Shown: piece after piece, positions 3,653-58,900 of the stretch
How the letters are laid out: each line of letters starts with the position of its first letter
Position numbering within the stretch: the stretch's first letter is position 1
NCBI GenBank assembly: GCA_964016885.1
Contig: OZ024741.1
Coordinates: 208,134,001 to 208,198,000, forward strand
DNA: 64,000 nt
From: Eledone cirrhosa
Lineage: Eukaryota
Direction of reading: 5' to 3'
Program-made: the position numbers and the translations under genes
The notes under the pieces: generated by a model
Database searches by the model: none
What the model saw: the letters and a program-made list of their open reading frames with translations, nothing else
What the model was told of the DNA's origin: nothing

Positions 3653-3774
<122 letters not shown>

Positions 3775-3895
3775 TAGATAGATAGATAGATACCTGTGTG
3801 TGTGTATATAAAAGATAAACAGAAATATCAACACAATCGGTACAGTATATGGCAGGAATATATTAGGTTAACGCTTGAAATAGTAGGAAGAAGGC

Positions 3896-10859: not shown

Positions 10860-11766
10860 CTAGCAGTAAAGCCCGGCGTTGCTCGGGGTCGCTCAGTAGC
10901 TGTGTTAAAGTTACAATGTTAAGTTTCTTTCTTGGCTTAAAAACTGTAGTGTCTACTGTGCAGACTTACATGTGGTGTTTTTGATTAATATTCCCTCAAC
11001 CAACAATATGCCTTATGAAGTTAAGAAAACATAACGATAACCCGAATGTTATAACAAAAGAGGATGCTGGGGATAGAAACTGCACTGGTTATTTATTAAC
11101 AAAGATCGAAAATGTAAACACTGCAACGCAGAGAAAAACATTAGCGTAACCAAATTATCAGTTATGTCTGTCTGCACGCCTATATCACCTCTCTGCACGA
11201 CTGTCTGTCTGCACGCCTATATCACCTCTCTGCACGACTGTCTGTCTGCACGCCTATATCACCTCTCTGCACGACTGTCTGTCTGCACGCGTATATCACC
11301 TCTCTGCACGACTGTCTGTCTGCACGACTGTCTGTCTGCACGCCTAACGACGAAATATTTGCTTGTTTTACGTAGTCTTTAAATAGACTTGTTTTCAAGT
11401 AAAAATATTGTTTTAAAATGCTTTTAAATGGAAATGAAGCAAAACGGAAGCTTAGTGTTCAACTGTTCGTGTATTGTGTTAATGTCATTTTAAACGCTGA
11501 GAAAGCCAGCGTAATTTTTTACGTAAGACGCTCAATGTAAACAGAACAAAGGGAAATAACTGATAACTTACGCTCAAAAATCGATACATTATATTCGATT
11601 TCGTCACATAGGGTGGGTCAATTTGAAATATTTTTTTTCCGATGTCTTCGCTAGGGCTCAATGTACAAGTATAGCAATTTCGGTGCAATTCCGTGAGAGA
11701 TTCTAAGAGGAGATGTGTGCCAAAAATCGATAGACAGACAGACAACCACAGTTTTATATATATAGA
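10860..11766 (-). mobile_element. Non-autonomous Helitron with internal minisatellite
   Basis: Minus strand A|TCTATATATATAAAA ... CCCGAGCAACGCCGGG hairpin ... CTAG|T. Confidence 0.8.
11166..11346. repeat. 37-bp minisatellite (~4.5 copies)
   Basis: Unit CTGTCTGTCTGCACGCCTATATCACCTCTCTGCACGA; period of 37 read directly. Confidence 0.95.
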
Positions 11767-27491: not shown

Positions 27492-27637
27492 CGAAGGAGA
27501 GTAAATTTTAGGGTAAAGGTATTAGTGAGAAATACCAATATTAATTTAATTTCTTGTTATAGATCTAAATTCCTTGTGTTTTAAATAAGATTGGTATTTC
27601 TCACTAGTACTTTTACCCTAAAATTTACTCTCCTTCG
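27492..27637. repeat. ~47-bp inverted repeat at the 5' truncation point of a Penelope-like fragment
   Basis: 27492-27538 is the reverse complement of 27590-27637. Confidence 0.8.
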
Positions 27638-27668
27638 ATAGATAGATAGATAAATAGATAGATAGATA
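27637..27668. repeat. (GATA)n tract at the 3' end of Tx1 copy A
   Basis: Direct reading. Confidence 0.95.
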
Positions 27669-27913
27669 CATAACTTTCTATTTATTTGCCACCAGGGCAT
27701 CAAAGATTGGGACAAATACAGGGGGGGGGGGGTACATACATTTCAAAGGACGTGTATAAACATATAACAAATCAAATTCAACAATCGAAGTCCTCAATAG
27801 GGAGGGGGCGTTGACGTGGGTCGCACACAGCCCCGAAAAAATGTGCAACCCTCCTCCTCGGGAGCACAAAGAGCGGGTGCTGCCTTCCCCTCCTCATTCT
27901 TCTCCTCTCTCAC

Positions 27914-30900
27914 CTACAGGCTGATATAGAGAGAAGGCCCATTCACTCGGGCCATTCTCGCCACTTTCACCCACCTTTCATAAAACGTGCTGGGGTAGAG
28001 CACCTGTCTCTCCATTCTGATCCTTCTAAAATGGTACTTGAAAAAAAGGACCAGTTGTTGGCCGGAGAGAAAGGTGTCTGACCTCAGCCCTTTCAACCTC
28101 GTCCACCATAGCTATCACACAGAGGAAAACCGCCCCTCCTTCGTTTTTGAAGGCGGTTTAATCGTGACAATGTACTCGGTGTTCAACCGGATTGGTCCTA
28201 CCCGCGACAGTAGTCGTTCCACGTAGCCCCACAGATCAGCAACGCCCGAGCAGTGTACGAATGTGTGCGCGACAGTTTCGTCGTGAAGCACGCATCTCGG
28301 ACAGATCTTCTTCGAGGGGTCTCTACCCGGGCGCCCGTGTCTGTAGAGCTTGTTCCGAACGGCTAGAGCTCCTCGGTAGCACTGTCAAGCCAGGGACTTT
28401 TGGAAGTTGTCCATCGGTCCCGGGCCGAACGTCCTACCGAACAGAATGGCTAGCTCGTTTTCCTCCATGCCCAGAGCCTCTCCGAGAACGTTGTTGCACT
28501 TGCTGCGCAACAACCCTCTATAGAATGTTGAGGTTGAGTCTCTACTGATTGCCGGATCCGCTTGCCACAGGGCCAGTCGCCCACTTTTCTCGGTCTTTGC
28601 AGTTCGGTGAGTGAGACGAGTCAGGAAAAGGGGCCCATACCGGCTGGCCGGTGAGGAATACCTGGAGGTGCCGTAGCCTTAATGCGTGTCTACGCATCTT
28701 CAGTCACGGCATCCCCAGCCCTCCGTCCCAAGGGTCTTGACAGCAGATGGATCTTCTCACCAAAGAGGCTCGCTTCTTCCAAAGGAATCGGAAGAGCGCG
28801 CGCTCCATTTTGGCGAGCGTTTTTGCTGGGGAAGGCACGACGGTCAAGCGGTAGAAGATGACTGACGCTATATAAGTGTTCGCCACCTCCGCTCGACCTT
28901 TCAGGGATAATTTGCACTCGGCCCACTTCTGGACGAGTACAAACACCCTGCCCCTTACCTCGTCCCAGTTTTTCTCCGCCTGGAGGTCCGATACGAACCA
29001 GACCCCGAGCAGCTTCACTGGTCCCTCCGTCCAGCGTCCGACGACGCCGTCGGAGGGCATCGGTTTGCCTCTCCACGTTCCGAGTTGCAAACCGACGGAC
29101 TTGTCCCGGTTCAGCTTGGCTCCTGTAAACCTTTCGTATTCCTCCAGTAAGGTGCCGATGTGCCCGATTTCCGAGACGCACAAAACAATTACTGTCACGT
29201 CATCGGCGTAGGCCGACACCACTTTCCGCAATCCCAGTTCCAAGGGGATTCCCTGCAACAGCTCCAACTTCCGCAGTAGTGGCTCAAGAACCAGCACATA
29301 CAGAAGGGAGGAGAGAGGGCACCCCTGTCGGATGGATCACGTGATTTGGAACGGCTCAGAAATGTAGCCGTTCACCTGGACCCTCGAGCAGGTGTTGCTG
29401 CTGTTCATTGCAGCAATCCAGCCCCTGAAAACGGGTCCGATCCTGCCGCCGCGAGCACCGCATCCAGGTACCGATGGTCGACCCTATCGACCGCCTTATA
29501 TTGATCCAAATTGAACAAGGCCCCACCAAATACGGGATCGTTCCCTACCCTCTCTACGATGTATCGCACGAGGTGGAAGTTGTCGTGTATGGACCTGGAC
29601 GCGATTGCGCATGTCTGCGCTTCTCCCACTAGGTTCCGACGACAAGCGCCAACCTCTTCGAAATTTTTAACTCTGTGTTTAGCAGAGTTATGGGTCTGAA
29701 GTTATCTATGTCATCCCCCTTGTTCTCGTCCTTCCTCACCAGCGTGACAACGCCCTTGGTCACAGAACTGGGAATTCTCCCAGTTACAGTAGACCGCCTC
29801 GAGGAGATCGGAGAACAAGTCCGGCATCGCTACATAAAGTTCGTATGGTAGACCATCGAGACACGGAGATTTGTGTTTGCCGCATTGGCTCAGCGCTTCC
29901 CCTATTTCAGCGGCTGAAATCGCAGGACTTCGCCTCCCCGTCCCAGAGCCGCAGCAGACCGTCAAGGTATGGACCGAAATCCATGGCCTCACCCGGCCCG
30001 CCGCCCCTCCCGAACAGTCGTGCAAAGCGCCGTTGAGAGGCCACGCACATCCGCTCAGGTTCAAGGATCACACGTCCATCCTGGTCCTTCAAAGAGCGAA
30101 TCGTGGACTTGTTGCCACTTTTCGCCTCTGTCACTCGGGCCCAGCAAACAGCTTTGTCTCCCTCGTTACGCAGAGCACGTATTTTACTCCTGACAACGCA
30201 GACCTCGTGCTTCGCGTCAAAGAACTGGTCTAGGGCCATTCTTGACGCCAGCACGCCGGCCACGTTTCCGCTCCTAATCGCTTCTTCTACTCTATCTATC
30301 AATTCCCTATCAGTTCTATTCCTATCTGATGCTAATGCCTGGCTAAAACCTATCGATTTTATTCTAATTTCTCTCTTGAGAGAACCCCACCACCTGCTGT
30401 TGACAATTGCCCCCGTCAACCGCTGCTTGTAAGCTTTGTTTGTCGGTAAGGACAAGTTTAGCTTCCGGTAACCGGGTCATTGTCTATGGGTTCTATCAAA
30501 GTTGACCACTCCGGTCACCAACTTGTGATCCGAATGGTCAACCATGAACATTCGTGGACAGCTTAATATGTCCCTATCCTTATTTTTAACTAGGAACCTA
30601 TCTAGGTACGACCTAGATGTTCCGCTGCGATTATTCCACGTCCTCAGTGGCACAGTCGGAAAATCTAGTCGATATCTATCGGCTAGATCAAATCGGCCGA
30701 TTAACCGTTTGAGGCTGTTACACCTCCCTCGTTCGGGACATGCCTCTACATAGTCCCAAAGTGCATCCAGGATACCATTCCAGTCCCCCACTAAAAGCAA
30801 GGAGCAAGACGTTCCCAGAAAAGTCTCTAGGCATTGGAAGAAGTCCGGTCGCGGAGTCCCAGATGGGGCATACGCTACCACCAGCCTGAAGGCTCCACCT

Positions 30901-31196
30901 TCACTACTGCCGACGTCTAGAGCCACCAGTCGACCCTCCGGGTCCAGGTGTACCTTCCGTGTTGCGAGGCCCAGGTGTTTTCGCTGCAGAACGCCTCCCC
31001 CCACCGGCTGACAGAGAGAAGCATAGATCTCAAAATCGTCGAAGATGGCGGCCAGTTGGTGCTCGCTGCTGATCCTGGACTCGCAAATAGCTATCACATC
31101 CATTCTGTGCGACTTGAGGTCATTTAAGTGTTTGCCCTGCTTCCAGGACATCCCCAGGCCGCGCACATTTAAACATCCAACTCTTATAAAAGCCAT
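27914..31196 (-). pseudogene. Tx1 ORF2 (APE endonuclease-reverse transcriptase), frameshifted, copy A
   Basis: GCLNVRGL, YAP, GDWN, YLDRF, SDH (APE); KSPCLDG, DQYKAVDRVDH, YADD (RT); ends NGPSLYISL*. Confidence 0.92.
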
Positions 31197-31239
31197 GTTG
31201 GTGGTGAATAGTTTAGAGTGGAGAAAAAGGAAAAGTCAC

Positions 31240-33054
31240 CTACCTGTCCTTCTCCTGGGGACCAGGCTGCACAATTTCCATGGGGGTGTCGGCGGGGTTG
31301 TTTGGTGGGGTGGTGGTTTGGGATGTGGTGGGGTTGGGGTGTTTGGTAGGGGAGTGGTGTCTGGTATGGTGGTGGGGAAAGATTTCAAGAGGACGCGGTT
31401 GATAGGTCTAGTGCAGGGTTCCCCACGTCCTCGGGAAAGTTCTGTTTGAGCATTGCGTAGGTGTCCCTTGGGACCCTAATCATTTTTAAATGCAGTTTAG
31501 TCGCCGCGTTGGTGAACATTCTCCCTTCGGTTTCCACCGAAGGGTCTTTGTCTATTGTTTGCACAAGTGTTTTGTTGTTTGTGTTGATGTATGTATACTG
31601 TTTTTGTTGTGTTGTGTTTGTTTTTGTTTGTTGTTCTTGTGTATGTTTTTGTTTGTGCTGGTGGTTGTGTGTTTGTTGCATTTTGTGAATGTGGTGCCTT
31701 CTTTTCTTTCTTTTTACCGGTTGAAATGGTTCTCCCTCGTCGTCACTGGGTGACGTTGATAAGGGTCCTCGTCCGTGTTGTTGGGGAGGGGTATATTTTG
31801 GGGCTTTGTTGTGGTTGCTTTTGTATTTGGTTTAGGTGGGGAGGGTTTGGGTGGGACAGTGTCTTGTGTTGTTATTTTTTCGTGTTGTTGCGGTTGTTGT
31901 TGTTGTTGTGGTGGTGGTGGTTCTGTTGTTGTGTTAGGGGTGGGCAGAAGCGTCTTTGGGGAGGGGGGGATTTATAAGGGGACCGGAAGCCCTCAGGTGA
32001 CCACTCCTTGAACAGTGGTAGCATGAAGGCCGCCTGCCCTCAACAGAAATGTTTATGAAGGCGACTCCATCCAGTGACACACGCTGCGGTATCCTAGCTC
32101 TCCGTTCTGGTCTCATTTGGACCAGAACTTCAAGGCTATTGCCGCCGAATACGCCCCCGGTGGATTCGCCTATCGAAAGGATTGTGTCCTCATCTTCTAA
32201 GAATCCCGTTAGCACCCACCCAATGCTCGCATTTGGCCTGATGCCCGAGATTCTTATCTTTTGAGTTCTTTTCCCCATATATGTGGGGGAAAAGGTGTAT
32301 GCTTTGGATACAATTGGCCACACAGAATATTTCCGTGCCGCTAACTCATCTTGCATTAAAACAGATATGCTTCCATACAATTTCCCCTTCTGTATGAAAG
32401 CGATATCCTTCCTGGCACTACTTCGGACCAGCTCGAATTCGCATTGGGACAATTGAGCCGGTTTCCAAGTCGTGCTTCAAACTGTCCCAAAGATTACGGT
32501 CCTCAGGACTGTGTCCCTTCTAATTTCTTCGGGCGAGGTAATTGTGAATTCCCCACCTTCCCCGAAAGTTACCAAGTTCCTTCCTTCTTTCGGCAATTTC
32601 TTGGCATTCGAGATGTCCAGTGCCTTGTATGTCTGCGTTTCTCGGACCGCCTGTGCGAAGGAAACTGCAGCTGTGGGTCCGTTTCTTTCGTGTTGTTATC
32701 ATTGTTGTTGTTGTTATTCGTTGTTATTATTCGTTGTTGTTATTCGTTGTTGTTATTCGTTGTTGTTATTCGTGTTGGCTTGCTTTTTTCCTTTGTTGGT
32801 GTTGTCATTATTGCTGCTGTTGGTTGTGTTGTTATTGTCATTGTTGCTGTTGTTGGTTGAGTTGTTATTGTCATTGTTGTTCTTGTTCGTGTAATTGTTA
32901 CTTTTGCGGTTTTCACCCATTTCCACAATTTTTTCTTTTGATTCCGTGGTGTCTTTTGCGGGAGTGAGGAGGGAAGGCTTACAGCGTTGTGCTGCTACCT
33001 TATCTCTGTCACTTTCCTTGGGGGCGTGGCATGTGTCGTATTAATGGCGTCCAT
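31240..33054 (-). pseudogene. Tx1 ORF1 (nucleic-acid-binding, zinc knuckle), disrupted, copy A
   Basis: Fragments 31934-32452 and 31385-31681 are homologous to ORF1 of copies B and C; the start codon is approximate. Confidence 0.8.
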
Positions 33055-33259
33055 TGTCACAAAACGACTTTTCATCGACAACTTATAACTATTAAATTTA
33101 GCCCCAAAAAGGGGCGCAATTTATTTTACCCAACGTCTGCAGGCCCAGGCGAGGGGTTAAACACAACAAATAACAAGTTACTTAAACAAACCTACCGCTT
33201 CTCGTAACAAGTTTACGACAAAATGCAGGAGCGAAACAAAAACACGTCTATCTTCTCCG

Positions 33260-33327
<68 letters not shown>
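33260..33327. repeat. (GATA)n tract between Tx1 copies A and B
   Basis: Direct reading. Confidence 0.97.
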
Positions 33328-33543
33328 TTCTTTATTTGCCACAAGGGGACAATACAAAGACATGCCGGGGATTTTACATACAGTCGTGTAAAAATATAAA
33401 ACAAACAATTACAACAATCGAAATCTCCAATAAGGGGGAAGCACCACAAATGGGTTGTTTAATACTCCGTCGAGAGAACAACCCTCAACTCCAGGAGCGT
33501 GTTGTGCAAGTGCTCCTTTCTTCCTTTTGCTCTATTCTTTAAC

Positions 33544-36500
33544 CTACAGGCTTATAAACAGAGAAGGCCCAATCACTCGTGATACTTAAAGAAGGGAATC
33601 AATTGTTGTCCGGAGAGAAAGGCATCTGTCCTCAGTCCTCTCAATCTCGTTCACCATACAACTTCTTTCACCATAGCCACTGTACAGAGGAAAACCCTCT
33701 CTCTTTCGTTTTTGAAAGAGGCTGGCGGTTTGATCCTTACTATAGACTCGGCAATCAACTGAATTTGTCCCATACGCGACAACAGTTGTTCTGCATAGTT
33801 CCACAGGCCGGTTAATCCCAGGCAGTGTAAAATTGCGTGCAGGACTGTTTCAATGTCTTGCGCGCATCTTGGACACGTCCTCCTGGAAGGATCCGTGCCT
33901 GTAGATCTTGTCCGTGCCTGTAGATTTTGTCATGAACTGGTAGAGCTCCTCGGTAGCACTGCCAGGTCAGGGACCTCTGGAAGTTGTCCATAGGTGGCGG
34001 GGGAAAAGTCCTACCGAACAGACTGGTGAGCTCATCGTCTTCGACGCCCAGAGTCTCTCCGAGCACGTCGTCGCCCTTGTAACGTACAATCCCTCTATAG
34101 AATGTCGAAGTGGAGTCTCCACTGATTGCTCTGCTCGCTTGACAGAGGACTGTGAGCGCCTAAGCGCATTCAATGTGCCAGGCGCCCATCGTTTTCGGTC
34201 TTTTCTTGACCCACGACTGCAGCTGCGTCAGCGAGACGAGCTGCTGGAAAGCCTGGCTCACAAACGGTGCTCACACCGGTTGGGGGTCGGTGAGGAATAC
34301 CTGGAGATGCCGCAGCCTCAGCGCATGTTTGCGCATCATCAGCCACGGTATTCCCAGCCCTCCGTTGGAAGGGTGCCGACAGCAGACGGATATCCTCACC
34401 AGCGGAGCCTGCTTCTTCTACAGAAACTGGAAGAGCGTACGTTCCATCTTGGCGGGGTGTTCACGCGGACAAGGCACGACAGTGAAGCGGTAGTAGATGA
34501 CGGACGCTATGAAAGTGTTCGCCACCTCCACTCGACCTTTCAAGGACAGTTTGCACTCTGCCCACTTCTGGGTGAGCGCAAACACCTCGGCCGTGACCTC
34601 GTTCCAGTTTTTCTCCACCTGGAGGTCTGGACCGAACCAGACTCCGAGCAATTTTTCCGGTCCGTCCGTCCAGCATCCAACGTCGCTGTCGGACGTCATC
34701 GGTTTGCCTCTCCACGTACCGAGTTGCAAACCGACAGACTTGTCCGGGTTTAGTTTTGCTCCCGTCAGCGTTTCGTATTCTTTCAGTAAGTTGCCGATCA
34801 CCAAGATTTCCGAGGTACTCGACACCATTACCGTCACGTCGTCGGCACAAGCCGACGCCCGCTTTGCGCAGTCCCGGTTCTAGAGTGATGCCCTGCAACA
34901 GCTCCAATTTCCGCAGTAGAGGCTCTAGAGTCAATACATACAGAATGGAGGAGAGAAGGCACCCTGTCGAATGGAACGTGTGATTGCGAACGGCTCCGAT
35001 AGGTAGCCGTTCAACTTGACCCTCGAGCAGATGCTGATGTGCATCGCCTCGATCCAGCCTCTGAAAACGGGACCGAAACCGGCCGCCTTGAGAACCGCTT
35101 CCAAGTATCGATGGTCGACCATATCGAATGCCTTAGACTGATCCATATTGATTTACTACCCACCCTCTCTATGATGTATCGCATGAGGTGGAGGTTGTCG
35201 TGTATGGACCTGGTCGGGATTGCACACGTTTGCGCTTTCCCTACCAGGTTCTCGACGACAAGCGCCAACCACGTCGTTAGCACCTTGGCCAAAATCGTTA
35301 ACTCTGTGTCTAGCATAGTTATGGGCCTGAAGTTGTTAATTTCCTGCCCCTTGTTCTCGTCTTTCCTGATCAGCGTTACTACGCCCTTGCCTGCAGAACT
35401 GGGAATTCTCCCGTTCTGCTGCCAATTGCAGTATACGGCTTCGAGGACGCCAGAAAACAAGTCCGGCATGCCTATGCAAAACTCATAGGGTAGACCATCT
35501 AGACCGGGTGACTTGCGTTTCCCGCAGCGGTCCAGAGCGTCCCGTATCTCAGTGTCCGTGATCGGTCTTTCGCAGAACTCGGCGTCCGTGTTCGAGAGAC
35601 GCGGCAGGCCGTCGAGGTATGAACTAATGTCCATTGCCCCGTTCAGCTCACCGTCGTTCTGCTCAAACAGTCGCGCAAAGTGCTGCTGAAAGACCGCGCA
35701 CATTTGCTTGGGGTCAAGTAGCACGCGTCCGTTTTGTTCTTTAAAAGACCGAATCGTGGACTTGTTGCCACTTTTTGCCTCCGCCACTCGGGCCCAGCTG
35801 ACAGCTTTCACTCCTTCGTTTCCTAGAGCACGTGTTTTGCTTCTGACCACGCAGCCTTCGTGTTTCGCATCGAAGAACTGGTCCCTGCCGTTCTCAACGC
35901 TAACACTCAAGCCGCGTTACCACTTCTAAGTGCCTCCTCTACCTTGGCTACTAGTTCTCTTTCTATTTTGTTTTTCTTTAAAGCTAACTCTCTACTAAAC
36001 CCTATCGATTCTACTCTAATTGCCTCTCTTGAGAGAGTACCACCATCTATTGTTGACGATGGCTCCCGTTAACTGTTGCTTGACTAGTCTACTTATCCGT
36101 TCACTGTAAGCTTTACGTGCCAGCAACGACACGTTCAGCTTCCAGTATCCGGGTCCCTGTCTACGTGTTCTGTCACGGTTGACTATGCAGACGACTTATT
36201 TGTCGTTTGAATAGGCAACCATGTGCATTCCTGGACAGCTTAACATCTCCTTGTCCCTTTCTCTAATGAAGAACCTATCTAAATACGAGCGAGATGTCCC
36301 GCTGCTGTTTGCCCACTTCCACTGTGGTGGAGTCGGGAAATCCAGTCGATATCTATCGACCAGTTGGAATTGGCCGATTAAAGTGCTGAGGCTGTTGCAC
36401 CCCCCTCTACTGGGACATGCTCCCACATAGTCCATCGTGCATCTAGGATACCATTCCAGTCCCCCACTAAGAGTAAGGAGCGAGACGTTCCCAGAAAAGA

Positions 36501-36887
36501 CTCTAGACGTTTAAAGAAATCTGGCCGTGATTGCGATTGCCTGGTCGGGGCATAAACGGCCACCAGTCTGAAGGCTCCACCTCCAATACTGTTCACGTCT
36601 AGGACTACCAGTCTATCCTCTGACTCCAAGTGTACTTGCTGTACTTCGACGTCCAGGTTCTTCCGAAACATGACGGCCACTCCACCTTAACCTACTGGCT
36701 GACAGAGAGATGCGTAGATCTCAACGTCGTCGAAGATGGGGGTTAGTTGCTGCCTGTTGTGGATGCTGGACTCGGTGATGGCTATCACATCCATACTGTG
36801 TGTCCTAAGGTTGTTTAAAAGTTGGCCCTGTTTCCAGGGCATCCCTAGGCCACGCATATTCACGCTTCCAATTCGTAAACTACCCAT
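33544..36887 (-). pseudogene. Tx1 ORF2, frameshifted, copy B
   Basis: GSVNMRGL, VYAP, GDWN, YLDR; KSPGLDG, NFRPIT, DQSKAFD, LSLKGR. Confidence 0.92.
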
Positions 36888-36928
36888 GTTGGTGGAGAAG
36901 AGTTGGCGAAAAGGACGAAAATGTGCAC

Positions 36929-38333
36929 TTACCTTTTCGTTTCCTGGAGATCGGGTTGTTCAATCTCCATTTCAGTTCTGGTGGGGGTGTTGGGTGGGGC
37001 GGGGAAACATTTTTATAAGACGCGGTTAATAGGTTTTTGACAGGGGTTGCCAATATCCTGCGAAAACTGTTCTTTCAATTTCTGATAGGTTTCTATCGAA
37101 ACCCTTATTAGTTTCAGGTGTGGAGACAATTCTACTTTGACGAAAGTTTTGCCCTCCGTCTCCACCTTGGGGTTTTGGGAGATGACCTCCATCAAACTGT
37201 GGTGTTGTTTGTGTCTGTGGTTGTATGTTGGTGTTGGTGATTTGAGTTTGGGGGGTTTTGTGGTGTCTCTTTTTTTGTTTTTTTAGATTTCAGAGGCTCT
37301 CCTTTTTCTTCACTTAAAGAAGGAGAAGCAGCCTCATCTGTTAATGCATAATCATCGTCAGGAGTGTGGGGTAGGGGTATGTTGTGTGGTAGTGGTGTTA
37401 CGTTATGTGTGTTTTGAGGTAGTGTTTGATGGAGTGGGATAGGGTGGGGCTGTGTTCTTCAGGGGTGTTGTCTGTGTTTTTTCTGTTGTTGGTTGAGTGG
37501 CTGTTTGTTTTGGTGTGTTTGCTCGTTTCGTCTGTTGTTGTACTTGTAGTGGTGGTTGTTTTGGTGTTGGTGTTGGTAATAGTGTTTTTTTAATGATGTT
37601 GTTGTCGTGTGTTTGTGAAGGTGGGGCCTTTAGGTCTGCTGTGCTACCACAGCGAAAGCAATGAGGTTCACATCCCTCCACCGAAACGTTTATCTTGTTG
37701 TTGTCGTCGATGACGAGTTTTTCGGGTATATTGGAGATTCTCTCCGGCCTCATCTGCATCAGAATCTCCAAATCAGTACCCGCCCACCTTTGTCTAATAG
37801 ACTTTCGTATTGAAAGAATAGCATTAGTCTCTGGCTCCACGAAGCCAGCCAAGATCCACCAGATGTTAATGTTTGATGGTATATATTTTTTTTGTGTCAT
37901 TTTTCCGATGTACGTAGGGAAAAAGGTGAATGATTTTGACACCTTTGGTGTCACAGAATGTTCTTGGGAGAGTGCCTCGCTTTTAAACAGTACGGAAATA
38001 CTTCCGTACTGTTTTCCTCGTTGAAGAAAGTCAATATTTTCTAGAGTCTCCTTCAATGTGGCTTCTATATCTCCTTCACTCACAAATATTGGCTTTCTCG
38101 TTGTGTTTGAGACAGTACTGAAGGTCACTGTCCTTCGAATTGTCTCTTCTTTTATTTCGAGGGGTGAATTGATTCTAAACCCACCCTTGTCTTCGAAAGT
38201 TACAAATTTTCTCCCTTGCTGGAGCATATCTCTTGCATTGGAGATGTCAAGATTTATAAAATCTTGTTTTTTGTTCACTGTTTCAGCGAAAGACATTTTT
38301 TGTTTGTGGTGTTGCTACTGCTGCTGCTGCTGC

Positions 38334-38388
<55 letters not shown>

Positions 38389-38600
38389 AGCCTCGGTGTT
38401 AGAAATCGCAATTTCTTGACGAGGTGAAACTTTATGTGTAGATGTATCTATGGAGTTGTTGTTGTTGGCTGTTTCATGTGTATGTATATTAATAGGTTTG
38501 ATTCCTGTGTTTTCCTGTGTGTTATTTTTCTCCGCATCGACGGTAGACATTTTTAAATGTTCAATTGGAAAAAAAAATGTTCCTTGTTGACGACGTCCAT
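36929..38600 (-). pseudogene. Tx1 ORF1, disrupted, copy B
   Basis: ORF 37403-38296 (CFRCGS knuckle remnant); Asn-rich N-terminus from (AAC)n; ends EQPDLQETKR*. Confidence 0.8.
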
Positions 38601-38814
38601 AGTGGCAGAAGCAGACTTAACGTTAATATCTGCCTTTCTACCTCTCTTCTCTCTGTTAACGTTCTCCGGCGTTCTTTCCGAGTTATTCATGTTTTATAGT
38701 CGGCAAAATTTGATTTTTTTAAACAACTTTTAAATTAAATTTTCGCCCCTAAAGGGGCAAAAAATGGATTTACCACCCAGCTGACAATTACCAGCGATGT
38801 TCCACAAGTCAGGC

Positions 38815-38903
<89 letters not shown>
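38815..38903. repeat. (GATA)n tract between Tx1 copies B and C
   Basis: Direct reading. Confidence 0.97.
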
Positions 38904-39164
38904 TCTTTCTTTATTTGCCACAGAGGCGTACAAAAATGCGACATTACAAGACGTGACGGCGGGGGTTTTACATAAAAATTACTTTAACATTAATAAATAA
39001 CAATAGAGTATATATAATAAAATAACATATATAATAAAATAACAATTGAAATCCCCAATAGGGGGAAACGTTACTTGTTTTACACCCCGTGGATAGAACA
39101 AACCTCAACACTAGGAACTCGTTTTGTAGGTGTTCCCGTCTTCCCTCTGTTTATCTTCCTCGAC

Positions 39165-42100
39165 CTACAGGTTTATATGCAGAGAAGGCCCATTTTCGCC
39201 ACATTCACCCACCTTTCAGGGAATTTACTGGGGTGTAGCAACTCTCTCTCCACTCTCACCTTCCTTCTGAAGTGATACTTAAAGAAGGGGATAAGTTGTT
39301 GTCCGGCGAGAAAGGTGTTTGCCTCAGTCCTTTTAACCTCGTCCACCATATTACCTCTTTCGCCATAGCCACCAGACAGAGGAAAACCGCCTCTCCTTCG
39401 TTCCTAAATGAAGGCGGCGGGGTGATCCTCACGATGGACTCGGCTAACAACTGGATGCGTCCTACACGTGACAGTAGCTGTTCGAGATGATTCCACAGGT
39501 CAGTCACTCCTGGGCACTGATCAATTGCGTGCAGAACGGTTTCAATGTCCTGCTCGCATCTTGGACAGGTCCTTTTGGCAGAATCTCTGCCAGGGCGTCC
39601 GTGCCTGTAGATCTTGTCACGAACCGGTAGAGCTCCTCGGTAGCACTGCCAGGCCAGAGACCTCTGGAAGTTATCCATAGGCCCTGGACGGAAAGTTCTC
39701 CCGAAAAGACTGGTCAGTTCGTCCTCCTTGATGCCTAGAGTTTCCCCGAGAACGCCGTCGCACTTATCCGCCACTAATCCCCTATAGAATGTCGAAGTGG
39801 AGTCTCCGCTGATTACCGTTTCCGCTTGCTAGAGGGCTGGGAGCGCCTGTAGGCACTTGAGGTGTCAGGCACCCATTTTAGGTCTTTGCTTGACCCAGGA
39901 CTTCAGCTCTGTTAGTGAGACGAGTTGTGGAAGAGCTTGTCTCACAAATGACAGCCACACCGGTTCACCGGTCAGGAATACCTGGAGATGGCGTAGCCTC
40001 ACCGCGTGCTTGCGCATCATCAGCCAAGGCATGCCCAGCCCTCCGTTAGAAGGGTGATGACAGCAGATGGATCTCCTCACCAATGGAGCCTGTTTCTTCC
40101 AGAGGTACTTGAAGAGTAGGCGTTCCATTTTGGTAAGGTATTCGCGGGGCAAGGCACGACTGTCAAGCGGTAGTAGATGTCGGACGCTATGTAAGTGTTC
40201 GCCACCTCCGCTCGACCTTTCAAGGAGAGTTTGCACTCAGCCCACTTCTGGGTGAGTGCAAATACCTTCGCTGTGACCTCGTTCCAGTTCTTGTCCACCT
40301 GGAGGTCTGGACCAAACCAGACTCCGAGCAATTTCACCGGTCCTTCCGTCCAGCGTTCAATGACACTGTCGGAAGGCATGGGTTTGCCTCTCCATGTGCC
40401 GAGTTGCAAACTGACAGACTTGTCTGAGTTTAGTCTTGCTCCTCTCAACTTTTCGTATTCCTGTAATAGGTAGCCGATTACCCCGATTTCCGAGGTTTTC
40501 GACACCATTACGGTTATGTCGTCGGCATAGGCCGACGCTGCTTTCCGCAGTCCTGGTTCGATCGGGATGCCCTGCAACAGCTCCAACTTCCGCAGTAACG
40601 GCTCGAGAGTCAGTACATACAGAATGGAGGAGAGAGGGCATCCCTGACGGATGGAACGCATGATTTGGAATGGCTCTGATAGGTAGCCATTCATCTTGAC
40701 TGCCGAACAGATCCTGGTGTGCATCGCAGCGATCCAGCCTCTGAAAACGGTACCGAAGCCGGCTGCCTTGAGAACTGCTTCAAAGTATTGATGGTCGACC
40801 CTATCAAATGCCTTAGACTGATCTAAATTGATCAGAGCCCCACCGAAGCCAGGTTTACACCCTACCCTCTCTATGATGTATCGCATGAGGTGGAGGCTTT
40901 AGTGTATGGACCTGGTCGGAATTGCACACGTTTGCGCTTCCCCTACCAGGTTCTCAACCACAAGCGCCAGCCTCGCTGCTTACACCTTGGCCAAAATCTT
41001 AAACTCTGTGTTGGGCAGAGTTATGGGCCTGAAATTGCTCATCTCTTCCCCCTTGTTCTCATCTTTCCTGATCAGCGTTAATACGCCTCTACCTACAGAA
41101 CTTGGAATCCTCCCGTTCTGCTGCCAGTTGCAGTAGACCGCTTCGAGGACGCCAAAGAACAATCTGGCATGCCTATGTAAAACTCATAGGGTAGACCATC
41201 TAAACCGGGTGATTTGCGTTTCCCGCAGCGACCTATGGCATCTTCTATTTCGCCCGCTGTGACCGGCCTTTCGCAGCTCTCCGCATCCGTGATCGAGAGT
41301 CACGGTACGCCGTCGAGGTTGGATCTGAAGTCCATCACCTCACTCGATGTACCTCTTTGCCCGAACAGTTGTGCAAAGTGCTGCTGGAAGGCCGTGCACA
41401 TCTGCTTGGATTCAAGTAGAATGCGTCCATCTTTGTCTTGCAAAGACCGAATTGTGGATTTGTTGCCACTTTTTGCCTCTGCCACTCGGGCCCAGCTAAC
41501 AGCTTTGGCTCCCTCGTTTTTTAGAGTACGTGTTATAAACAATACAACCTTCGAGTTTCACGTTGAAGAAATGGTCTAGTGCCGTTCTCGCCGCTAGCAC
41601 GTCAGCTGTACTTCCATTCCTAAGTGCCTCTGCTATTTTAGCTACCAGTTCTGTTTCAATTTTGTTTTTTTCTAAAGCTACTTCCTTGCTAAATGCTATC
41701 GATTCTATTCTAATTGCTATCTTGAGAGAGCTCCACCACCTGTTGTTGATGATCGCCCCCGTCAACTGGCACTTAACTAAGGTGCTAATCCATTTATTGT
41801 AGGCCTTACGCGCCGGGAGCGACATGTTTAGCTTCCAGTATCCGGGTCCCTGTCTAGTTCTATCAAGGTTGACTACGCAGGTGACTAATTTGTGGTCTGA
41901 ATAGGCAATCATGTACATTTGTGGACAGCTTAATGTTTCCTTATCATTCTGTCTAATTAAAAACATACGATCTAGAAGACCTAGTGCAGTTGCTCCACGT
42001 CCATAGTGGTGTACTTGGGAAGTCTAGTCGATATCTATCAGCCAGTTGGAATTGGCTGATGAGATGTTTGAGGCTATTACACCCCCCCTCTACTATCACA

Positions 42101-42565
42101 AGCTTCTTCATAGTCCCAACGTGCGTCTAAGATGCCATTCCAGTCCCCCGCTAACACTAAGGAGCGAGACGTTCCCAGGAATGGCTCCAGACGCTTGAAG
42201 AACTCTGGTCGCGATGTCCCATTCGGGGCATATACGGCCACCAATCTGAAAGCTCCACCTTCACTATCATTCACGTCCAGGACCAACAGGCTGCCCTCCG
42301 GATCCAAGTGAATCGTCTGTATTTTGAGATCCAATTTTTTTTGAAACAGAACAGCAACTCCCCCTCCACCTCCCGGCTGACAGAGAGATGCGTAGATTTC
42401 AAAATCATCGAACATGGGGGTTAACTGCTGCTTGTCGTGAGCCCTGGACTCGGTGATGGCTATCACATCTATACAATGTGACCTGAGATCATTTAAAATC
42501 TGGCCCTGTTTCCAGGACATGCCCAGGCCACGTACAATCAAACACCCAGCTTGTATAGTCGCCAT
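39165..42565 (-). pseudogene. Tx1 ORF2, frameshifted, copy C
   Basis: ORF fragments 42077-42565, 41496-41966, 40077-40886 and 39256-39774 give APE, RT and the C-terminal Cys/His motif. Confidence 0.93.
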
Positions 42566-42606
42566 GTTGGTGAAGAAGAGTTAAGGAGACAAAAAAACAG
42601 GAAAAC

Positions 42607-44399
42607 TTACCTTTTCCTTTCCTGGAGGTCGGGTTGTTCGATCTCCATGTCCAGATTGGTGGTGCTTGGGGAGGGAGGGAATCCTTTTAGCAGGACACGG
42701 TTAAGGAGCTTTTGGCAAGGGGTTCCACATCATGTGGGAAGTTCTCTTTTAAAGTTTCATACTGTAGAGTTGTTACCCTCATAAGTTTGAGGTTTGGGGG
42801 TGTGTCATTGGTGGGGAAGGTTTTCCCTTCCGTTTGTATTGTGGGATCCTTTTGGACAGTTTCCACCAGATCTTTGTTTCTCGTTTTTATGTATGTGTAA
42901 TGTATTTTGTTTTTTGTGTACTGTTTCTGTTTGTAGTTTTCTTTTTGTGGTTGGGGTTTGTGATTGTAGTGGTGTGGGTGTTTGTTTTGTTGGCGAAGTG
43001 TCTGGTTGTGTTGTTGGTGTGGTTGTCGTTTGTGGCGGTATGTTTATGTCAGTGTTGGGTGTGTGCGTCAGTGTTGATGTTCTTGTATTTTTTCTGTGTC
43101 TTTTTTGCTTATTCGATTCTTGAGGTTCCTCTTCATCCTCACTTGGAGATGTTGGGGTTCCTGTGTCTGAGGTGTTATCATTGTGGGTAGTTGGGAGGGG
43201 TATGTTGTGTTGTGGTGGAGTGTTTGTATGTGTGTGTTTGTGGGAGTGTTGGACTGAAGGGGAAGGGGTGGGACAGAGTTCTTCGGGGGAATTTTTGGTG
43301 TGGTGTCTTTTGTCGTTTGTGATAGTTGGGTGAATGTTGATGGTTTGGGGGTTGTGTTTTATTTTTGTTTTCGGGTGTGTCTGTTGTGGTTTTGGAGTTG
43401 GCAACAACGCCTTCTTTTGTTTTTCCACATCCAGCATTGGGCAAAATGCTTTTAAATGTGTGTTTTTTCCACATTTGAAACATTGTGGTCTTTTGCCCTC
43501 CACTGTGATGTGGACAACATGGTTATCATCAACCGGCACCCTTTCCGGTATTTTGTCATTCCTCTCCGGTTTCATTTGAACTAAAAGCTCAATTGAGATC
43601 CCACTCCAGTTCTGTCGGATTGATGTTTTTACAGAGAGGAGGTTGTCTTCACCCTCCTCCAAACAACCACCCAGGATCCACCAAATGTTGGTGCTTGGTG
43701 GGATCTGGGAGATCCTTATTTTATGGGTTCTTCTTCCCATGTATGTTGGGAAGATGTGTTGGCTCGTTCTAATTGGAGCCACCGAATATTTCTGGCGAGG
43801 GCCTCGCTTTTAAAGAGCACCGAGCTGCTCCCGTACTGCTTGGCCCTCTGGAGGTAAGCAATGTCTGGCATTGCCTCCTTTAGCGCGGTTTCCACTGTGC
43901 TATTACTTAAAGCCATCGGTTTCTTGGTTCGTGAGCAGATCGTCCGGAAGAAAATTGTTTTTCTAAAGGTCGCGGCTCTAATTTCCGGTGGAGTACTTAT
44001 ACGAAAGCCGTTACCTTCGAAACTTATATGTTGCGCAGCGTCCTTTAGGTGCTGCGCTTGGTTTGACAGATCTTTGGCAAGGCTTTCTGCAAACGTTTTA
44101 TTCTTTTGGTGTGTTTGGTTGTTTTCGTTTGTGCTGGAATTGTTGTTTTTGTTGTTCTTGTTATTGTTGTTGTTGCTGGTGCCGCCGGTTGTGTTGTATT
44201 TGTTTATAGTTTCACACATTTGGTTTTGGTTTGTTGCCATGGCAACGTCAAGCTGTTGGTTAGCAGGTGAACAAAATCCTTCCTCTGTCTGATCTTTGTC
44301 TGAGATATCTGCTACTATGACAGTGGAATGGGGAAGCTATAAGCATATCTTCCCCTTTCCTCCTTCGAATGTTGGTGAAGAAGCGGTTGCTTCAGCCAT
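42607..44399 (-). pseudogene. Tx1 ORF1, frameshifted, copy C
   Basis: ORFs 43716-44240 and 42805-43782 with a CX2CX4HX4C knuckle; ends EQPDLQERKR*. Confidence 0.82.
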
Positions 44400-44611
44400 T
44401 TTTTTTTTAAACGTTAGTTTTTCCCCAATTTTTTTTTTCATGTACTATTTCGCCCAAAGGCGTAGTATATTTTGAGAGACTGACCAGATCAAAATTTGAC
44501 CTGGCAGTCCCTCTACAAATTGGTATAAAAATGAAGGTTCACAGTCAAGAATTTCTATAGAAATATAAGCAGAACTTACCCAGCAAGTTTCATGCGTGTG
44601 TCCATCCCAAA

Positions 44612-44619
44612 AGATAGAT

Positions 44620-44701
<82 letters not shown>
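44612..44701. repeat. (GATA)n tract at the 5' end of Tx1 copy C
   Basis: Direct reading; no element 3' end lies beyond it. Confidence 0.97.
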
Positions 44702-46005: not shown

Positions 46006-46142
46006 TAACAGATTAAAGTTTAAACAAAGAATCGCTGCTTTCACCCTTAACGGGATCTGAAACTAAAAAATTAATCTGTGAACGCAGATGTAAATATTTC
46101 GAAAAACGTTGCAACCGAAGGAAGACAGGAAGACGATACTTT

Positions 46143-46410
46143 GGTTCGTGGAGACGTTCCCTGGCAAAGAACGGAAAAAAACGAAGATAATACGTCATTA
46201 ATTGGAGCGTTGAAAACAATTACACGCAAAGACAAAACCACGTTTATGGTATAAATGAAGTCGTAGACTAATATTGTATTAGGTGGTTCGTGGAGACGTT
46301 CTCTGGCAATGAACGAAAAAACGAAGATAATACGTCATTATATGGGGCAGTGAGAACAATTACACGAAAGACAAAACCACGTTTATGGTATAACTGAAGT
46401 CGTAGACTAA
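46143..46410. repeat. ~130-bp tandem duplication
   Basis: 46143-46271 matches 46286-46410. Confidence 0.85.
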
Positions 46411-47129
46411 AATTCTATATGGGAAACCGAATGATTCTCGGCTTCAGAGCTAAGAATAATGTAAATAAATTACAGAGGTAATTGAAATTAAATAAAAACA
46501 TGCACGTATCCATATACGTACATACACAAGCATACGCGAAAACACCCGCCATGGGTATGCAAATACAAGCACGTACACAAAAACACACGCACATGCAGAA
46601 CCCACGCATCGCCTGTATCCGCACGCATACGAACGTATACACCAAATACACATAAAAATATATATATTAAAAATATATATATACATATGTGTGTGTGTGT
46701 GCGTGTATACATATAATTATATAAACGTATATAAATATACACACATAAATACGTATATAACGCGCGCACACACATAACTACATGTGAATACACATATGTT
46801 CGCAGATGCACGTCAACCAAAACACAAAGTACACATATACACACACCTTACATACGTTCGAACCCGCATACTCACACAGAGACAAAACTCACGTATACAC
46901 ATAACCATATGCACATGTACCAGTATATATAATATAATATACGCCTATAACATATACCAGCAAATAAACGTACGAGAAAGAATACGTGCCTTCACAAAAC
47001 ATACAGGTAATATATACTTACCTATACAAATAAGTAATGGTAAAAACATAGCATACTTAGCTACCACATCAAGACGTAAAATATCCGCATATAGTTCGTA
47101 CTATCCGTTAGATATGTGGGGCTGTAATA

Positions 47130-55914: not shown

Positions 55915-58900
55915 GGTATGTTGTGGTGGTGGTAGATGTGTTGTGGTGTGTTGTGGTGGTGGTAGATGGGTTGTGCTGTGTTGTGGTGGTAGTTATATTG
56001 TGGTGTGTTGTGGTGTTAGATGTGTTGTGGTTGGTTGTGGTGGTAGTTATGTTGTGGTGTGTTGTGGTGGTAGTTATGTTGTGGTGTGTTGTGGTGGTAG
56101 ATGTGTTGTGGTGTGTTGTGGTGGTAGATGTGTCGTGGTGTGTTGTGGTAGTAGATGTGTTGTGGTGTGTTGTGGTGGTAGTTATTTTGTTGTGGGTTGT
56201 GGTGGTAGTTATGTTGTGGTGTGTTGTGGTGGTAGATGTGTTGTGGTGTGTTGTGGTGGTAGATGTGTTGTGGTGTGTTGTGGTGGTAGATGTGTTGTGG
56301 TGTGTTGTGGTGGTAGATGTGTTGTGGTGTGTTGTGGTGGTGGTAGATGGGTTGTGCTGTGTTGTGGTGGTAGTTATATTGTGGTGTGTTGTGGTGGTAG
56401 ATGTGTTGTGGTGTGTTGTGGTGGTAGTTATGTTGTGGTGTGTTGTGGTGGTAGTTATGTTGTGGTGTGTTGTGGTGGTAGATGTGTTGTGGTGTGTTGT
56501 GGTGGTAGATGTGTCGTGGTGTGTTGTGGTGGTAGATGTGTTGTGGTGTGTTGTGGTGGTAGTTATGTTGTGGTGTGTTGTTGTGGTAGTTAAATTGTGG
56601 TGTGTTGTGGTGGTAGATGTGTTGTGGTGTGTTGTGGTGTGTTGTGGTTGTGGCAGATGGGTTGTGCTGTGTTGTGGTGGTAGTTATGTTGTGGTGTGTT
56701 GTGGTGGTAGATGTGTTGTGGTGTGTTGTGGTGGTAGATGTGCTGTGGTGTGTCGTGGTGGTAGATGTGTTGTGGTCTGTTGTGGTGGTAGATGTGTTGT
56801 GGTGTGTTGTGGTGGTGGTAGATGGGTTGTGCTGTGTTGTGGTGGTAGTTATGTTGTGGTGGTTGATGTGTTGTGGTGTGCTGTAGTGGTAGATGTGTCG
56901 TGGTGTGTTGTGGTGGTAGATGTGTTGTGGTGTGTTGTGGTGGTAGATGTGTTGTTGGGTGTTGTGGTGGTAGATGTGTTGTGGCGTGCTGTAGTGGTAG
57001 ATGTGTTATGGTGTGTTGTGGTGGTAGATGTGTTGTGGTGTGTTGTGGTGGTAGATGTGTTGTGGTGTGCTGTAGTGGTAGATGTTTCGTGGTGTGTTGT
57101 GGTGGTAGATGTGTTGTGGTGTGTTGTGGTGGTAGGTGTGTTGTGATGTGCTGTGTTGTGGTAGATGTGTTGTAGTGTGTTGTGTTGTGGTAGATGTGTC
57201 GTGGTGTGTTGTGGTGTGTTGTTGTGGTGGTAGAATCTGTTGTGGTGTATTGTTGTGGTGTGTTGTGGTTTGTTATAGTGGTAGATGTGTTGCGGTTTGT
57301 GTTGTGGTAGATGAATGTGGTGTGTTCTAGTGGTAGATGTCTTGTGGTCTGTTGTGTAGTGGAGGATGTGTTGTGGTGTGTTGTGGTGTTTTTAGTGGTA
57401 GATGTGTTGTGGTGTGTTGTTATGTTAGATGTGTTGTTGTTTGTTGTTGTGTTGGTAGATGTGTTGTTGTGTGTTGTTTTGGTGGTAGATGTGTTGTGGT
57501 GTGTTCTAGTGGTAGATGTGTTGTGGTGTTTTGTTGTTGTAGATGTGTTGTTGTGTGTTGTGAGGTGGTAGATGTGTCGCGGTGTGTTGTTTGGGTGGTA
57601 GACATGTTGTGGTGTGTTCTGGTGGTGGTAGATGTATTGTGGTGTGTTGTAGTGGTAGATGTGTTGTGGTGTGTTGTGATGGTAGATGTGTTGTGGTGTG
57701 TTGTGCTGGTAGATGTTACGTGGTGTGTTGTGGTGGTGGTAGCAGTGTTGTGTGTTGTGGTAGTGGTAGCAGTGTTGTGTTTTGTTTTAATGGCATATGG
57801 GTTGAGATGTGTTGTTGTGGTGGTAGATGTGTTGTTGTAGTGGTAGATGTGTTGTGGTGTATTGTGGTGGTGGAAGATGGGTTGTGGTGTTTTGTTGTAG
57901 TGGTTGATGTGTTGTGGTTTGTTGTAGTGGTAGATGTGTTGTGGTGTGTTGTAGTGGTAGATGTGTTGTGCTGTGTTGTGTTGGTGGTAGATGTGTTGTT
58001 GTGCATTGTAGTGTTAGATGTGTTGTGGTGTGTTGTTGTAGTGGTAGATGTGTTGTGGTGTGTTGTTATAGTGGTAGATGTCTTGTGGTGTGTTGTGGTG
58101 GGATATGGTTTGTGGTGGTAGATGTGTTTTGGTGTGTTGTTGTAGTGGTAGATGTGTTGTGGTGTGTTGTTGTAATGGTAGATGTGTTGTTGTGTGTTAT
58201 GGTGGTAGATGTGTTGTGGTGTGTTGTTGTGGTAGATGTGTTGTGGGGTGTTGTAGTGGTATATGTGTTGTGGTGTGCTGTAGTGGTAGATGTGTTGTGG
58301 CGTGTTGTGGTGGTAGATGTGTTGCGGTGTGTTGTGGTGGTAGATGTGTTTTGGTGTGTTGTTGTAGTGGTAGATGTGTTGTGGTGTATTGTAGTGGTAA
58401 ATGTGTTTATGTGTGTTTGTATAGTGGTAGATGTGTTGTGTTGCTGGTAGATGTGTTTTGGTGTGTTGTGGTGGTAGATGTGTTGTGGTGTGTTGTTGTA
58501 GTGGTAGATGTGTTGTGGTATTTTGTCGTGGTGTTAGATTTGTTGTGCTGTGTTGTGGTGGTGATAGATGTGTTTTGGTGTGTTGTGGTTTCTATGTGTT
58601 GTGGTGTGTTGTGATGGTGGTAGTTGTATTGTGATGTTTTTGCAGTGGTAGATTTGTTGTGCTGTGTTGTGGTGGTGATAGATGTGTTGTGGTGTGTTGT
58701 GGTTTTCTATGTGTTGTGGTGTGTTGTGTAGTGGTAGATGTGTTGTTGTGTGTTTTTGTAGTTGTAGATGTGTTGTTGTGGGTTGTGTAGTGGTGGATGT
58801 GTTGTGGTGTGTTGTGGTGGTAGATGTGTTGTGGTGTGTTGTTTTGGTAGATCTGTTGTTGTTTGTTGTTGTGGTGGTAGATGTGTTGTGTGTTGTTTTG

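What the first reader, a model, noticed from the sequence alone, without database searches (positions are those of the whole stretch)
27637..44701. Three diverged Tx1 LINE subfamilies stacked in one (GATA)n microsatellite: a candidate GATA/TATC-targeting retrotransposon lineage
Seen: three ~5.5-5.7 kb elements in the same orientation, separated and bounded only by (GATA)n (27637, 33260, 38815, 44612). They are clearly diverged in ORF1 and UTRs, so this is not a recent tandem duplication. None has a poly(A) tail; AATAAA is followed within about 4-12 nt by (TCTA)n. The outermost tract abuts the 5' end of copy C with no element beyond it, which argues that the repeat is a target and not only a tail. 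Known: Tx1-clade APE endonucleases can be sequence-specific (Kibi for TC repeats, Koshi for TTC repeats, Keno for U2 snRNA, Mutsu for 5S rDNA). Inference: independent, strand-specific insertions by a family group specific for (TCTA)n. I do not know of a described GATA-specific Tx1 family, but I could not search Repbase or Dfam.
Basis: partly seen in the sequence, partly recalled or inferred. Interest (0 to 1): 0.85.

Follow-up and report, generated by a model that had tools for sequence, protein, structure and literature searches.

The report
Octopod LINEs stacked in GATA repeats
Three broken copies of related but distinct jumping genes, likely from an octopus-like animal, sit head to tail inside one GATA repeat, likely because this family aims at GATA repeats; repeat-seeking families of this kind are known, but I did not find this repeat described as a target.

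Summary
Observation confirmed. Three full-length, decayed L1/Tx1-group LINEs (5587, 5487, 5708 bp, minus strand) lie head to tail, bounded only by four (GATA)n tracts. None has poly(A); AATAAA precedes the tract by 12, 4 and 6 nt. ORF2s are 72-79% identical with dN/dS 0.23-0.24 and dS 0.55-0.79, so they come from separately evolving lineages, not from a duplicated dead copy. All three 5' junctions end in ...TATCT. RAD reads of two samples show one more locus: a 765-nt 5'-truncated copy directly behind another copy's 3' end, with an 11-nt TCTA tract in the same register. Best reading: strand-specific target-primed insertion into (TCTA)n, likely nicking at the T/A step and likely priming on UCUA units in the RNA (inferred). 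Nearest named relatives are Argonauta proteins. Known analogues are Kibi (TC)n, Koshi (TTC)n and crocodilian Tx1 (TTCC/TTTC)n. Tx1-clade membership and a genome-wide flank tally could not be tested. Nine paper searches found no GATA-targeting family; Repbase and Dfam were not searchable. This scan noted the same thing before on other DNA (five copies elsewhere in this genome, six in another genome). A new target for a known kind; modest interest.

The parts
27637..27672 (+). (GATA)n tract, imperfect, at the 3' end of copy A
   Evidence: TRF, 9 units, 90%
27673..33259 (-). Copy A, full-length decayed L1/Tx1-group LINE, 5587 bp; ORF2 about 31196-27917; ORF1 remnant with degenerate zinc knuckle near 32047
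33260..33327 (+). (GATA)n tract between the 5' end of A and the 3' end of B; 5' junction of A reads ...TATCT|CGGAG
33328..38814 (-). Copy B, full-length decayed LINE, 5487 bp; ORF2 about 36887-33550; ORF1 piece 38314-37403
38815..38903 (+). (GATA)22 tract between the 5' end of B and the 3' end of C; 5' junction of B reads ...TATCT|GCCTG
38904..44611 (-). Copy C, full-length decayed LINE, 5708 bp; ORF2 about 42565-39171; intact CX2CX4HX4C knuckle in ORF1 near 43506
44612..44701 (+). Outermost (GATA)n tract, upstream of copy C, no element of this family beyond it; junction ...TATCT|TTTGG
30477..31235 (-). APE-type endonuclease frame of copy A (Exo_endo_phos, E 5.6e-5; GDWN, SYLDR and SDHK motifs kept)
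40077..40898 (-). Reverse transcriptase frame of copy C (RVT_1, E 1.6e-16; YADD kept)
39256..39828 (-). C-terminal ORF2 piece of copy C with zf-RVT (E 9.7e-5) and CPRC zinc motif

Best explanation
These are three dead copies from three diverged lineages of one L1/Tx1-group LINE clade, lying in one orientation in one (TCTA)n microsatellite, and they likely arrived by three separate target-primed insertions because the clade likely aims at that repeat. Shown: anatomy, separate lineages, missing poly(A), common 5' register. Inferred: the APE endonuclease nicks the GATA strand at the T/A step (AGAT/AGAT). The freed 3' end pairs with AUCU units that the RNA carries just past AAUAAA, because cleavage would fall inside the downstream tract; copying then starts ahead of any poly(A), and none is written into DNA. 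The second nick at TCT/ATC leaves the ...TATCT seen at the 5' junctions. Repeat stays on both sides, so the site can be hit again and copies pile up.
For: Purifying selection between copies: third-position excess (113/100/227 differences for A-B), dN/dS 0.23, 0.24, 0.23. The copies form their own clade (SH-aLRT 100, quick tree) among relatives that include Argonauta proteins. 3 of 3 copies lie in GATA tracts, while such tracts make up about 0.1% of the rest of the window and 77 (AT)n/(AC)n tracts hold none. The tract at 44612-44701 cannot be the tail of any copy. 3 of 3 5' junctions end ...TATCT. A joint in two RAD runs (121 and 133 reads, one start each) links a copy's 3' end through 11 nt of TCTA repeat to a copy truncated 765 nt from its 3' end, again ending TATCT; those 11 letters are not the element's own sequence at that place. 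Four junctions in one register: about 1 in 64 if registers were equally likely. Precedent: Kibi, Koshi and crocodilian Tx1 on microsatellites (PMC4494074); L1 endonuclease nicks TTTTT/AA (PMC8565326); priming is helped by pairing of the last 4-10 nt (PMC3649969).
Against: Only four junctions in all. The read joint is one locus, picked because it fits from the 15 joints shown of 1795, laid at 80% likeness with 28-32 letters on its shorter side. No genome-wide flank tally was obtained, so solitary copies in other flanks may be common. No RNA data bear on the 3' end. The endonuclease hairpin loop differs among the three copies, so it gives no sign of a conserved GATA-reading surface, and loop grafts did not transfer specificity in L1 (PMC1950540). 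Target-site duplications cannot be read inside a repeat.
Confidence: 0.8

Rival explanations
1. Same outcome, other division of labour: the endonuclease is loose, and the choice of GATA tracts comes almost wholly from pairing between a UCUA-ending RNA and the nicked DNA; or, the other way, from the endonuclease alone, with no repeat in the RNA. The confidence given is for either extreme, within the targeting reading.
For: The hairpin loop is not conserved among the copies. In L1, an endonuclease with relaxed specificity still integrated in T-rich sites, and pairing was proposed as a cause (PMC3649969).
Against: Pairing alone acts at the 3' junction and does not predict a fixed register at the 5' junctions (4 of 4). 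An endonuclease acting alone does not explain why no poly(A) is copied despite a conserved AATAAA.
Confidence: 0.3
2. One event: the reverse transcriptase jumped from RNA to RNA and wrote a concatemer of three TCTA-tailed templates; the inner tracts are only tails.
For: Same orientation, full length, nothing but repeat between the copies. Decay is of the same order; an equal rate of private changes is not rejected overall (chi-square p 0.09).
Against: It needs three full-length RNAs of three lineages in one event. It does not explain the fourth tract upstream of C. Private changes at conserved columns are 26 of 279 (A), 19 of 272 (B), 12 of 265 (C); A against C p 0.03, uncorrected and confounded with branch length.
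Confidence: 0.07
3. TCTA-tailed copies inserted at unrelated places and were later brought together by recombination between GATA tracts, or survived only there.
For: Microsatellites are unstable, and passive accumulation was proposed for Waldo elements near CA repeats (PMC3812793).
Against: Recombination needs a tract at each 5' end in the first place, which is itself the targeting. A truncated copy abutting an 11-nt tract is hard to get this way.
Confidence: 0.05
4. Tandem segmental duplication of one element followed by neutral decay.
For: Equal size, order and orientation.
Against: dN/dS 0.23-0.24 with dS 0.55-0.79; ORF1 and UTR far more diverged than ORF2. Neutral decay would give even divergence.
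Confidence: 0.01

Closest known systems
Kibi (TC)n and Koshi (TTC)n of teleost fishes (Tx1 clade; PMC4494074 and PMC3812793, passages seen; the original 2004 paper is not held)
   Same: APE-type non-LTR retrotransposons that insert into one microsatellite.
   Different: The target here is (TCTA)n, which holds a T/A step; the host is likely an octopod. Kinship to Kibi or Koshi was not testable.
Crocodilian Tx1 families on (TTCC)n or (TTTC)n (Tx1-1_Crp and others; PMC4494074, section 15 read)
   Same: Tetranucleotide microsatellite targets shared by a group of related families.
   Different: Their units are pure pyrimidine on one strand; GATA does not occur in that paper's main text. Its Fig. 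3 and supplements, which list further targets, were not seen.
Human LINE-1 ORF2p
   Same: Best solved relative of the profile (E 2e-119 against 9e-39 for R2); endonuclease, RT and C-terminal zinc motif in the same order; nicking at a T/A step.
   Different: L1 has poly(A) tails and a weak TTTT/AA preference; these copies have no poly(A) and sit in a microsatellite.
L1-Tx1 families of Octopus vulgaris (PMC13282606, passages seen)
   Same: 13 recently active L1-Tx1 families with 421 insertions are listed; this lineage may be among them.
   Different: The passages give no target preference; GATA does not occur in the main text.

Membership tests
L1 group (L1 and Tx1 clades) | Two ORFs; ORF2 with APE endonuclease, RT and C-terminal zinc motif | tested here: met
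   Exo_endo_phos, RVT_1, zf-RVT; motifs kept in all three copies apart from a few decayed residues
L1 group (L1 and Tx1 clades) | ORF2 closer to L1 than to R2 or other solved non-LTR proteins | tested here: met
   Profile of 20 relatives: L1 ORF2p E 2e-119, R2 9e-39; only a few clades have solved structures
Tx1 clade | RT groups with named Tx1 references (Tx1L, Keno, Kibi, Koshi) | not testable with these tools
   No named Tx1 sequence came up; the tree has no labelled reference
Tx1 clade | ORF1 with RNA-binding domain and CCHC knuckle (feature recalled, from no call) | tested here: inconclusive
   Intact knuckle in C, degenerate in A and B; Atlas look-alikes with zf-CCHC, RBD_ZCCHC3 or RRM_1 at 0.87-0.91; no Pfam or sequence hit
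Target-specific family by Kojima's rule (PMC4494074) | Target sequence in more than 20% of a family's flanks genome-wide | tested here: inconclusive
   3 of 3 copies in the window and one read locus; no genome is held, so no unbiased sample
Kibi or Koshi | Target (TC)n or (TTC)n | tested here: not met
   All four tracts are (GATA)n
Canonical poly(A)-tailed L1 | 3' poly(A) tail | tested here: not met
   Longest A run after AATAAA is 3 in each copy

The most novel reading that the evidence does not exclude
The lineage farms its own target. Its RNA is cut and polyadenylated inside the downstream GATA tract and primes on those repeat units; every insertion leaves repeat on both sides; arrays grow in one direction, each new copy entering the tract upstream of the last (decay here falls from A to B to C: 9.3, 7.0, 4.5%). 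An old, radiating octopod LINE clade would then be a main source and keeper of the genome's GATA microsatellites, and a natural GATA-directed integration system.
Probability: 0.25. Interest if true: 0.55.

Novelty: new variant of a known kind. Interest (0 to 1): 0.36.

Why it matters
Microsatellite targeting by APE-type LINEs is known, but its mechanism is described as not well understood (PMC3812793). A (TCTA)n target adds a unit with a T/A step, between L1's TTTT/AA site and the pyrimidine-only targets of fish and crocodilian Tx1. Several diverged lineages sharing one target would give a natural series for separating endonuclease specificity from RNA-target pairing. Stacked arrays also record insertion order. 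For octopod genetics it means GATA markers may often be LINE junctions. It is not a new principle, and the scan had already noted this family at other loci.

Tried and rejected
No whole genome is held, so no genome-wide BLAST. The C-terminal alignment found no relative in viral contigs (25 stretches matched a pattern, 0 confirmed) or metagenome contigs (599 matched, 0 confirmed). The broader scan kept 80 of 533 loci, all distant (25-42% in the best segment). 0 of these 80 hold a GATA-class tract of 12 nt or more: a loose control only, since assemblies often break at repeats. L059, the closest by best segment, falls outside the clade and ends in (AT)n about 750 nt past its ORF. A single endonuclease frame found nothing useful in the PDB (best E 0.52). 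ORF1 found no sequence homologue (661 candidates, 0 at E 0.001). A 3' UTR hairpin is not supported on its own: 1 of 10 pairs compensatory, z-scores from -1.42 to +0.92. Run X1 (word share 0.07) is not used to name any host. CpG depletion gave no usable age signal (0.92, 0.93, 0.74). PMC9004415 (passages) and the ZCCHC3 search (listing) gave no link between ZCCHC3-like ORF1 and Tx1. The careful tree did not finish; one search is the quick tree, with 83 rows chosen from the 271 proteins covering the RT region plus 12 of 80 loci.
Full report
Observation. Tandem Repeats Finder places (GATA)n tracts at 27637-27672, 33260-33327, 38815-38903 and 44612-44701. The three stretches between them are 5587 (A), 5487 (B) and 5708 bp (C), all read on the minus strand. 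Pfam finds Exo_endo_phos, RVT_1 and zf-RVT in their frames (7 of 13 frames had a hit, one of them an unrelated weak match). Intact relatives align over nearly the whole ORF2 of each copy and nowhere else in the 64 kb. The ATG of ORF2 lies at 31196, 36887 and 42565. Every copy is broken: 6, 9 and 5 stops and 3, 7 and 8 frame switches against guide P0323; the counts shift with the guide. AATAAA sits 12, 4 and 6 nt before the tract and no poly(A) follows.

Not a duplication. ORF2 regions are 72-79% identical, ORF1 and the 5' UTR only 34-67% in 300-column windows. Over 647-777 shared codons the differences favour third positions (A-B 113/100/227, A-C 144/121/269, B-C 107/85/231), with dN/dS 0.23-0.24 and dS 0.55-0.79. 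A dead copy duplicated in tandem would diverge evenly. The three copies therefore descend from three lineages that evolved while active.

What kind of element. A profile of 20 relatives matches human L1 ORF2p at E 2e-119 and R2 at 9e-39, which places it in the L1 group. ORF1 has a CX2CX4HX4C knuckle, intact in C, and Atlas look-alikes carry zf-CCHC and RNA-binding domains (scores 0.87-0.92, a lead only). That this ORF1 type marks Tx1 rather than vertebrate L1 is recalled, not tested. No named Tx1 sequence came up, so Tx1-clade membership stays likely but untested. The nearest named proteins are from Argonauta hians (56-64% identity to the copies). In a quick maximum-likelihood tree of 83 rows the three copies form one clade (SH-aLRT 100) inside a group with two Argonauta proteins (100). 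The host is thus likely an octopod; earlier notes of the scan say the same. Laid on copy C at 80% likeness, two contig sets gave 24,882 and 38,634 records and two RAD runs about 255,000 of 12.5-12.8 million reads each, so the group is very abundant in those organisms.

Target or tail. Outside the array the window has 1 GATA tract in 46,935 bases, but 55 (AT)n and 22 (AC)n tracts, none with an element. All three copies are in GATA tracts. The inner tracts could be tails, but the tract at 44612-44701 lies upstream of C with no element beyond it. The three unrelated 5' ends all follow ...TATCT. One search adds one independent locus: in RAD runs X5 and X6 (two samples, one study; 121 and 133 reads, one start each) reads run from the 3' end of a copy through 11 nt of TCTA repeat into a copy that begins at the position of 39670, 765 nt from the 3' end. 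Those 11 letters are not what the element has upstream of 39670, and they too end in TATCT. A truncated copy has no reason to begin with the repeat unless it inserted into it. Four junctions in one register would arise about once in 64 by chance. Limits: this is one locus, picked from the 15 joints shown of 1795, at 80% likeness and with 28-32 letters on the short side. A tally of 5' flanks across the genome was not obtained, since no genome is held and contig scans found no close relative.

Mechanism. Shown: anatomy, separate lineages, missing poly(A), shared register. Inferred: L1 endonuclease nicks TTTTT/AA (PMC8565326, abstract start and passages), a T/A step. (TCTA)n has such a step on both strands at the same place. 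A nick at AGAT/AGAT frees a 3' end that can pair with AUCU in RNA, and a nick at TCT/ATC leaves exactly the ...TATCT seen. With AATAAA only 4-12 nt from the tract, cleavage for polyadenylation (recalled as 10-30 nt downstream) would fall inside the repeat, so the RNA would carry a few UCUA units ahead of its poly(A). Priming there skips the poly(A). Pairing of the last 4-10 nt is known to help L1 priming (PMC3649969, passages). The share of endonuclease and of pairing is open: the hairpin loop differs among the copies, and grafting the Tx1L loop onto L1 did not transfer specificity (PMC1950540, passages). I put targeting at 0.8 and this detailed route at about 0.5.

Order of arrival. At columns where intact relatives and the other two copies agree, private changes are 26 of 279 (A), 19 of 272 (B) and 12 of 265 (C). 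A against C gives p 0.03, all three together p 0.09. A also has the longest branch, so this is a weak hint that the array grew from the 3' side upstream, and a weak argument against one template-jumping event.

Comparison with what is known. Kibi targets (TC)n, Koshi (TTC)n and crocodilian Tx1 families (TTCC)n or (TTTC)n (PMC4494074, passages and section 15). A review lists ACAY, AC, TC, TTC and TAA targets (PMC3812793, passages); Togen targets (TG)n and belongs to another clade (PMC4640811, passages). An Octopus vulgaris annotation lists 13 recently active L1-Tx1 families without targets in the passages seen (PMC13282606). Nine searches showed no GATA-targeting family, five of them aimed at that question (9, 26, 48, 59, 60). 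I could not see Repbase, Dfam, Kojima and Fujiwara 2004 (not held), or Fig. 3 and the supplements of PMC4494074, any of which may already list such a family. It works like Kibi and Koshi; it is not one of them by target.

Earlier notes of this scan report five stacked copies elsewhere in this genome, six in another genome, and insertions at a GATA-like satellite variant. I did not see their DNA and do not count them as evidence; they agree with the reading I had written down before looking.

Verdict. Real, and most likely a microsatellite-targeting L1/Tx1-group lineage with a target unit that I did not find in print: a new variant of a known kind, interest 0.36.

Noticed in passing
window 27492-27637: A 146-nt inverted repeat (58-nt arms, 91% complementary, 30-nt spacer) abuts the lowest GATA tract; it looks like a small MITE.
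   Followed up: partly
window 31246, 36934, 42612 and 27920, 33550, 39171 (minus strand): All three copies keep a splice-donor-like motif (AG/GTAAGT or AG/GTAGGT) about 45-50 nt before the ORF2 ATG and the same CCTGTAGGT at the end of ORF2, as earlier notes reported for this family. No RNA evidence here.
   Followed up: partly
window 55922-63976: 8-kb G+T-rich tandem array, period 27/54, about 289 units, GC skew about +0.9, running to the end of the window.
   Followed up: no
window 3742-3792: A further (ATAG)n tract of about 13 units with no element in it, next to a (CA)n tract: an empty potential target.
   Followed up: partly
window 32691-32900, 38334-38388, 44140-44175: Each copy has an (AAC)n-rich stretch in front of ORF1, expanded to different lengths.
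   Followed up: no
window 1234-1749, 11165-11326, 46142-46418: Small tandem duplications with units of 250, 37 and 139 bp.
   Followed up: no
L037 4174-4209; L051 7-42; L058 6738-6781; L059 4285-4338: Distant relatives whose contigs have (ATTG)n, (CT)n, (AG)n or (AT)n near an end; may be tails, targets or assembly breaks.
   Followed up: partly
proteins P0006-P0120: A large sister clade of ORF2 proteins (about 41-53% identical in the RT piece), nearly all unnamed ENA records, some in clusters of hundreds; host and target unknown.
   Followed up: partly
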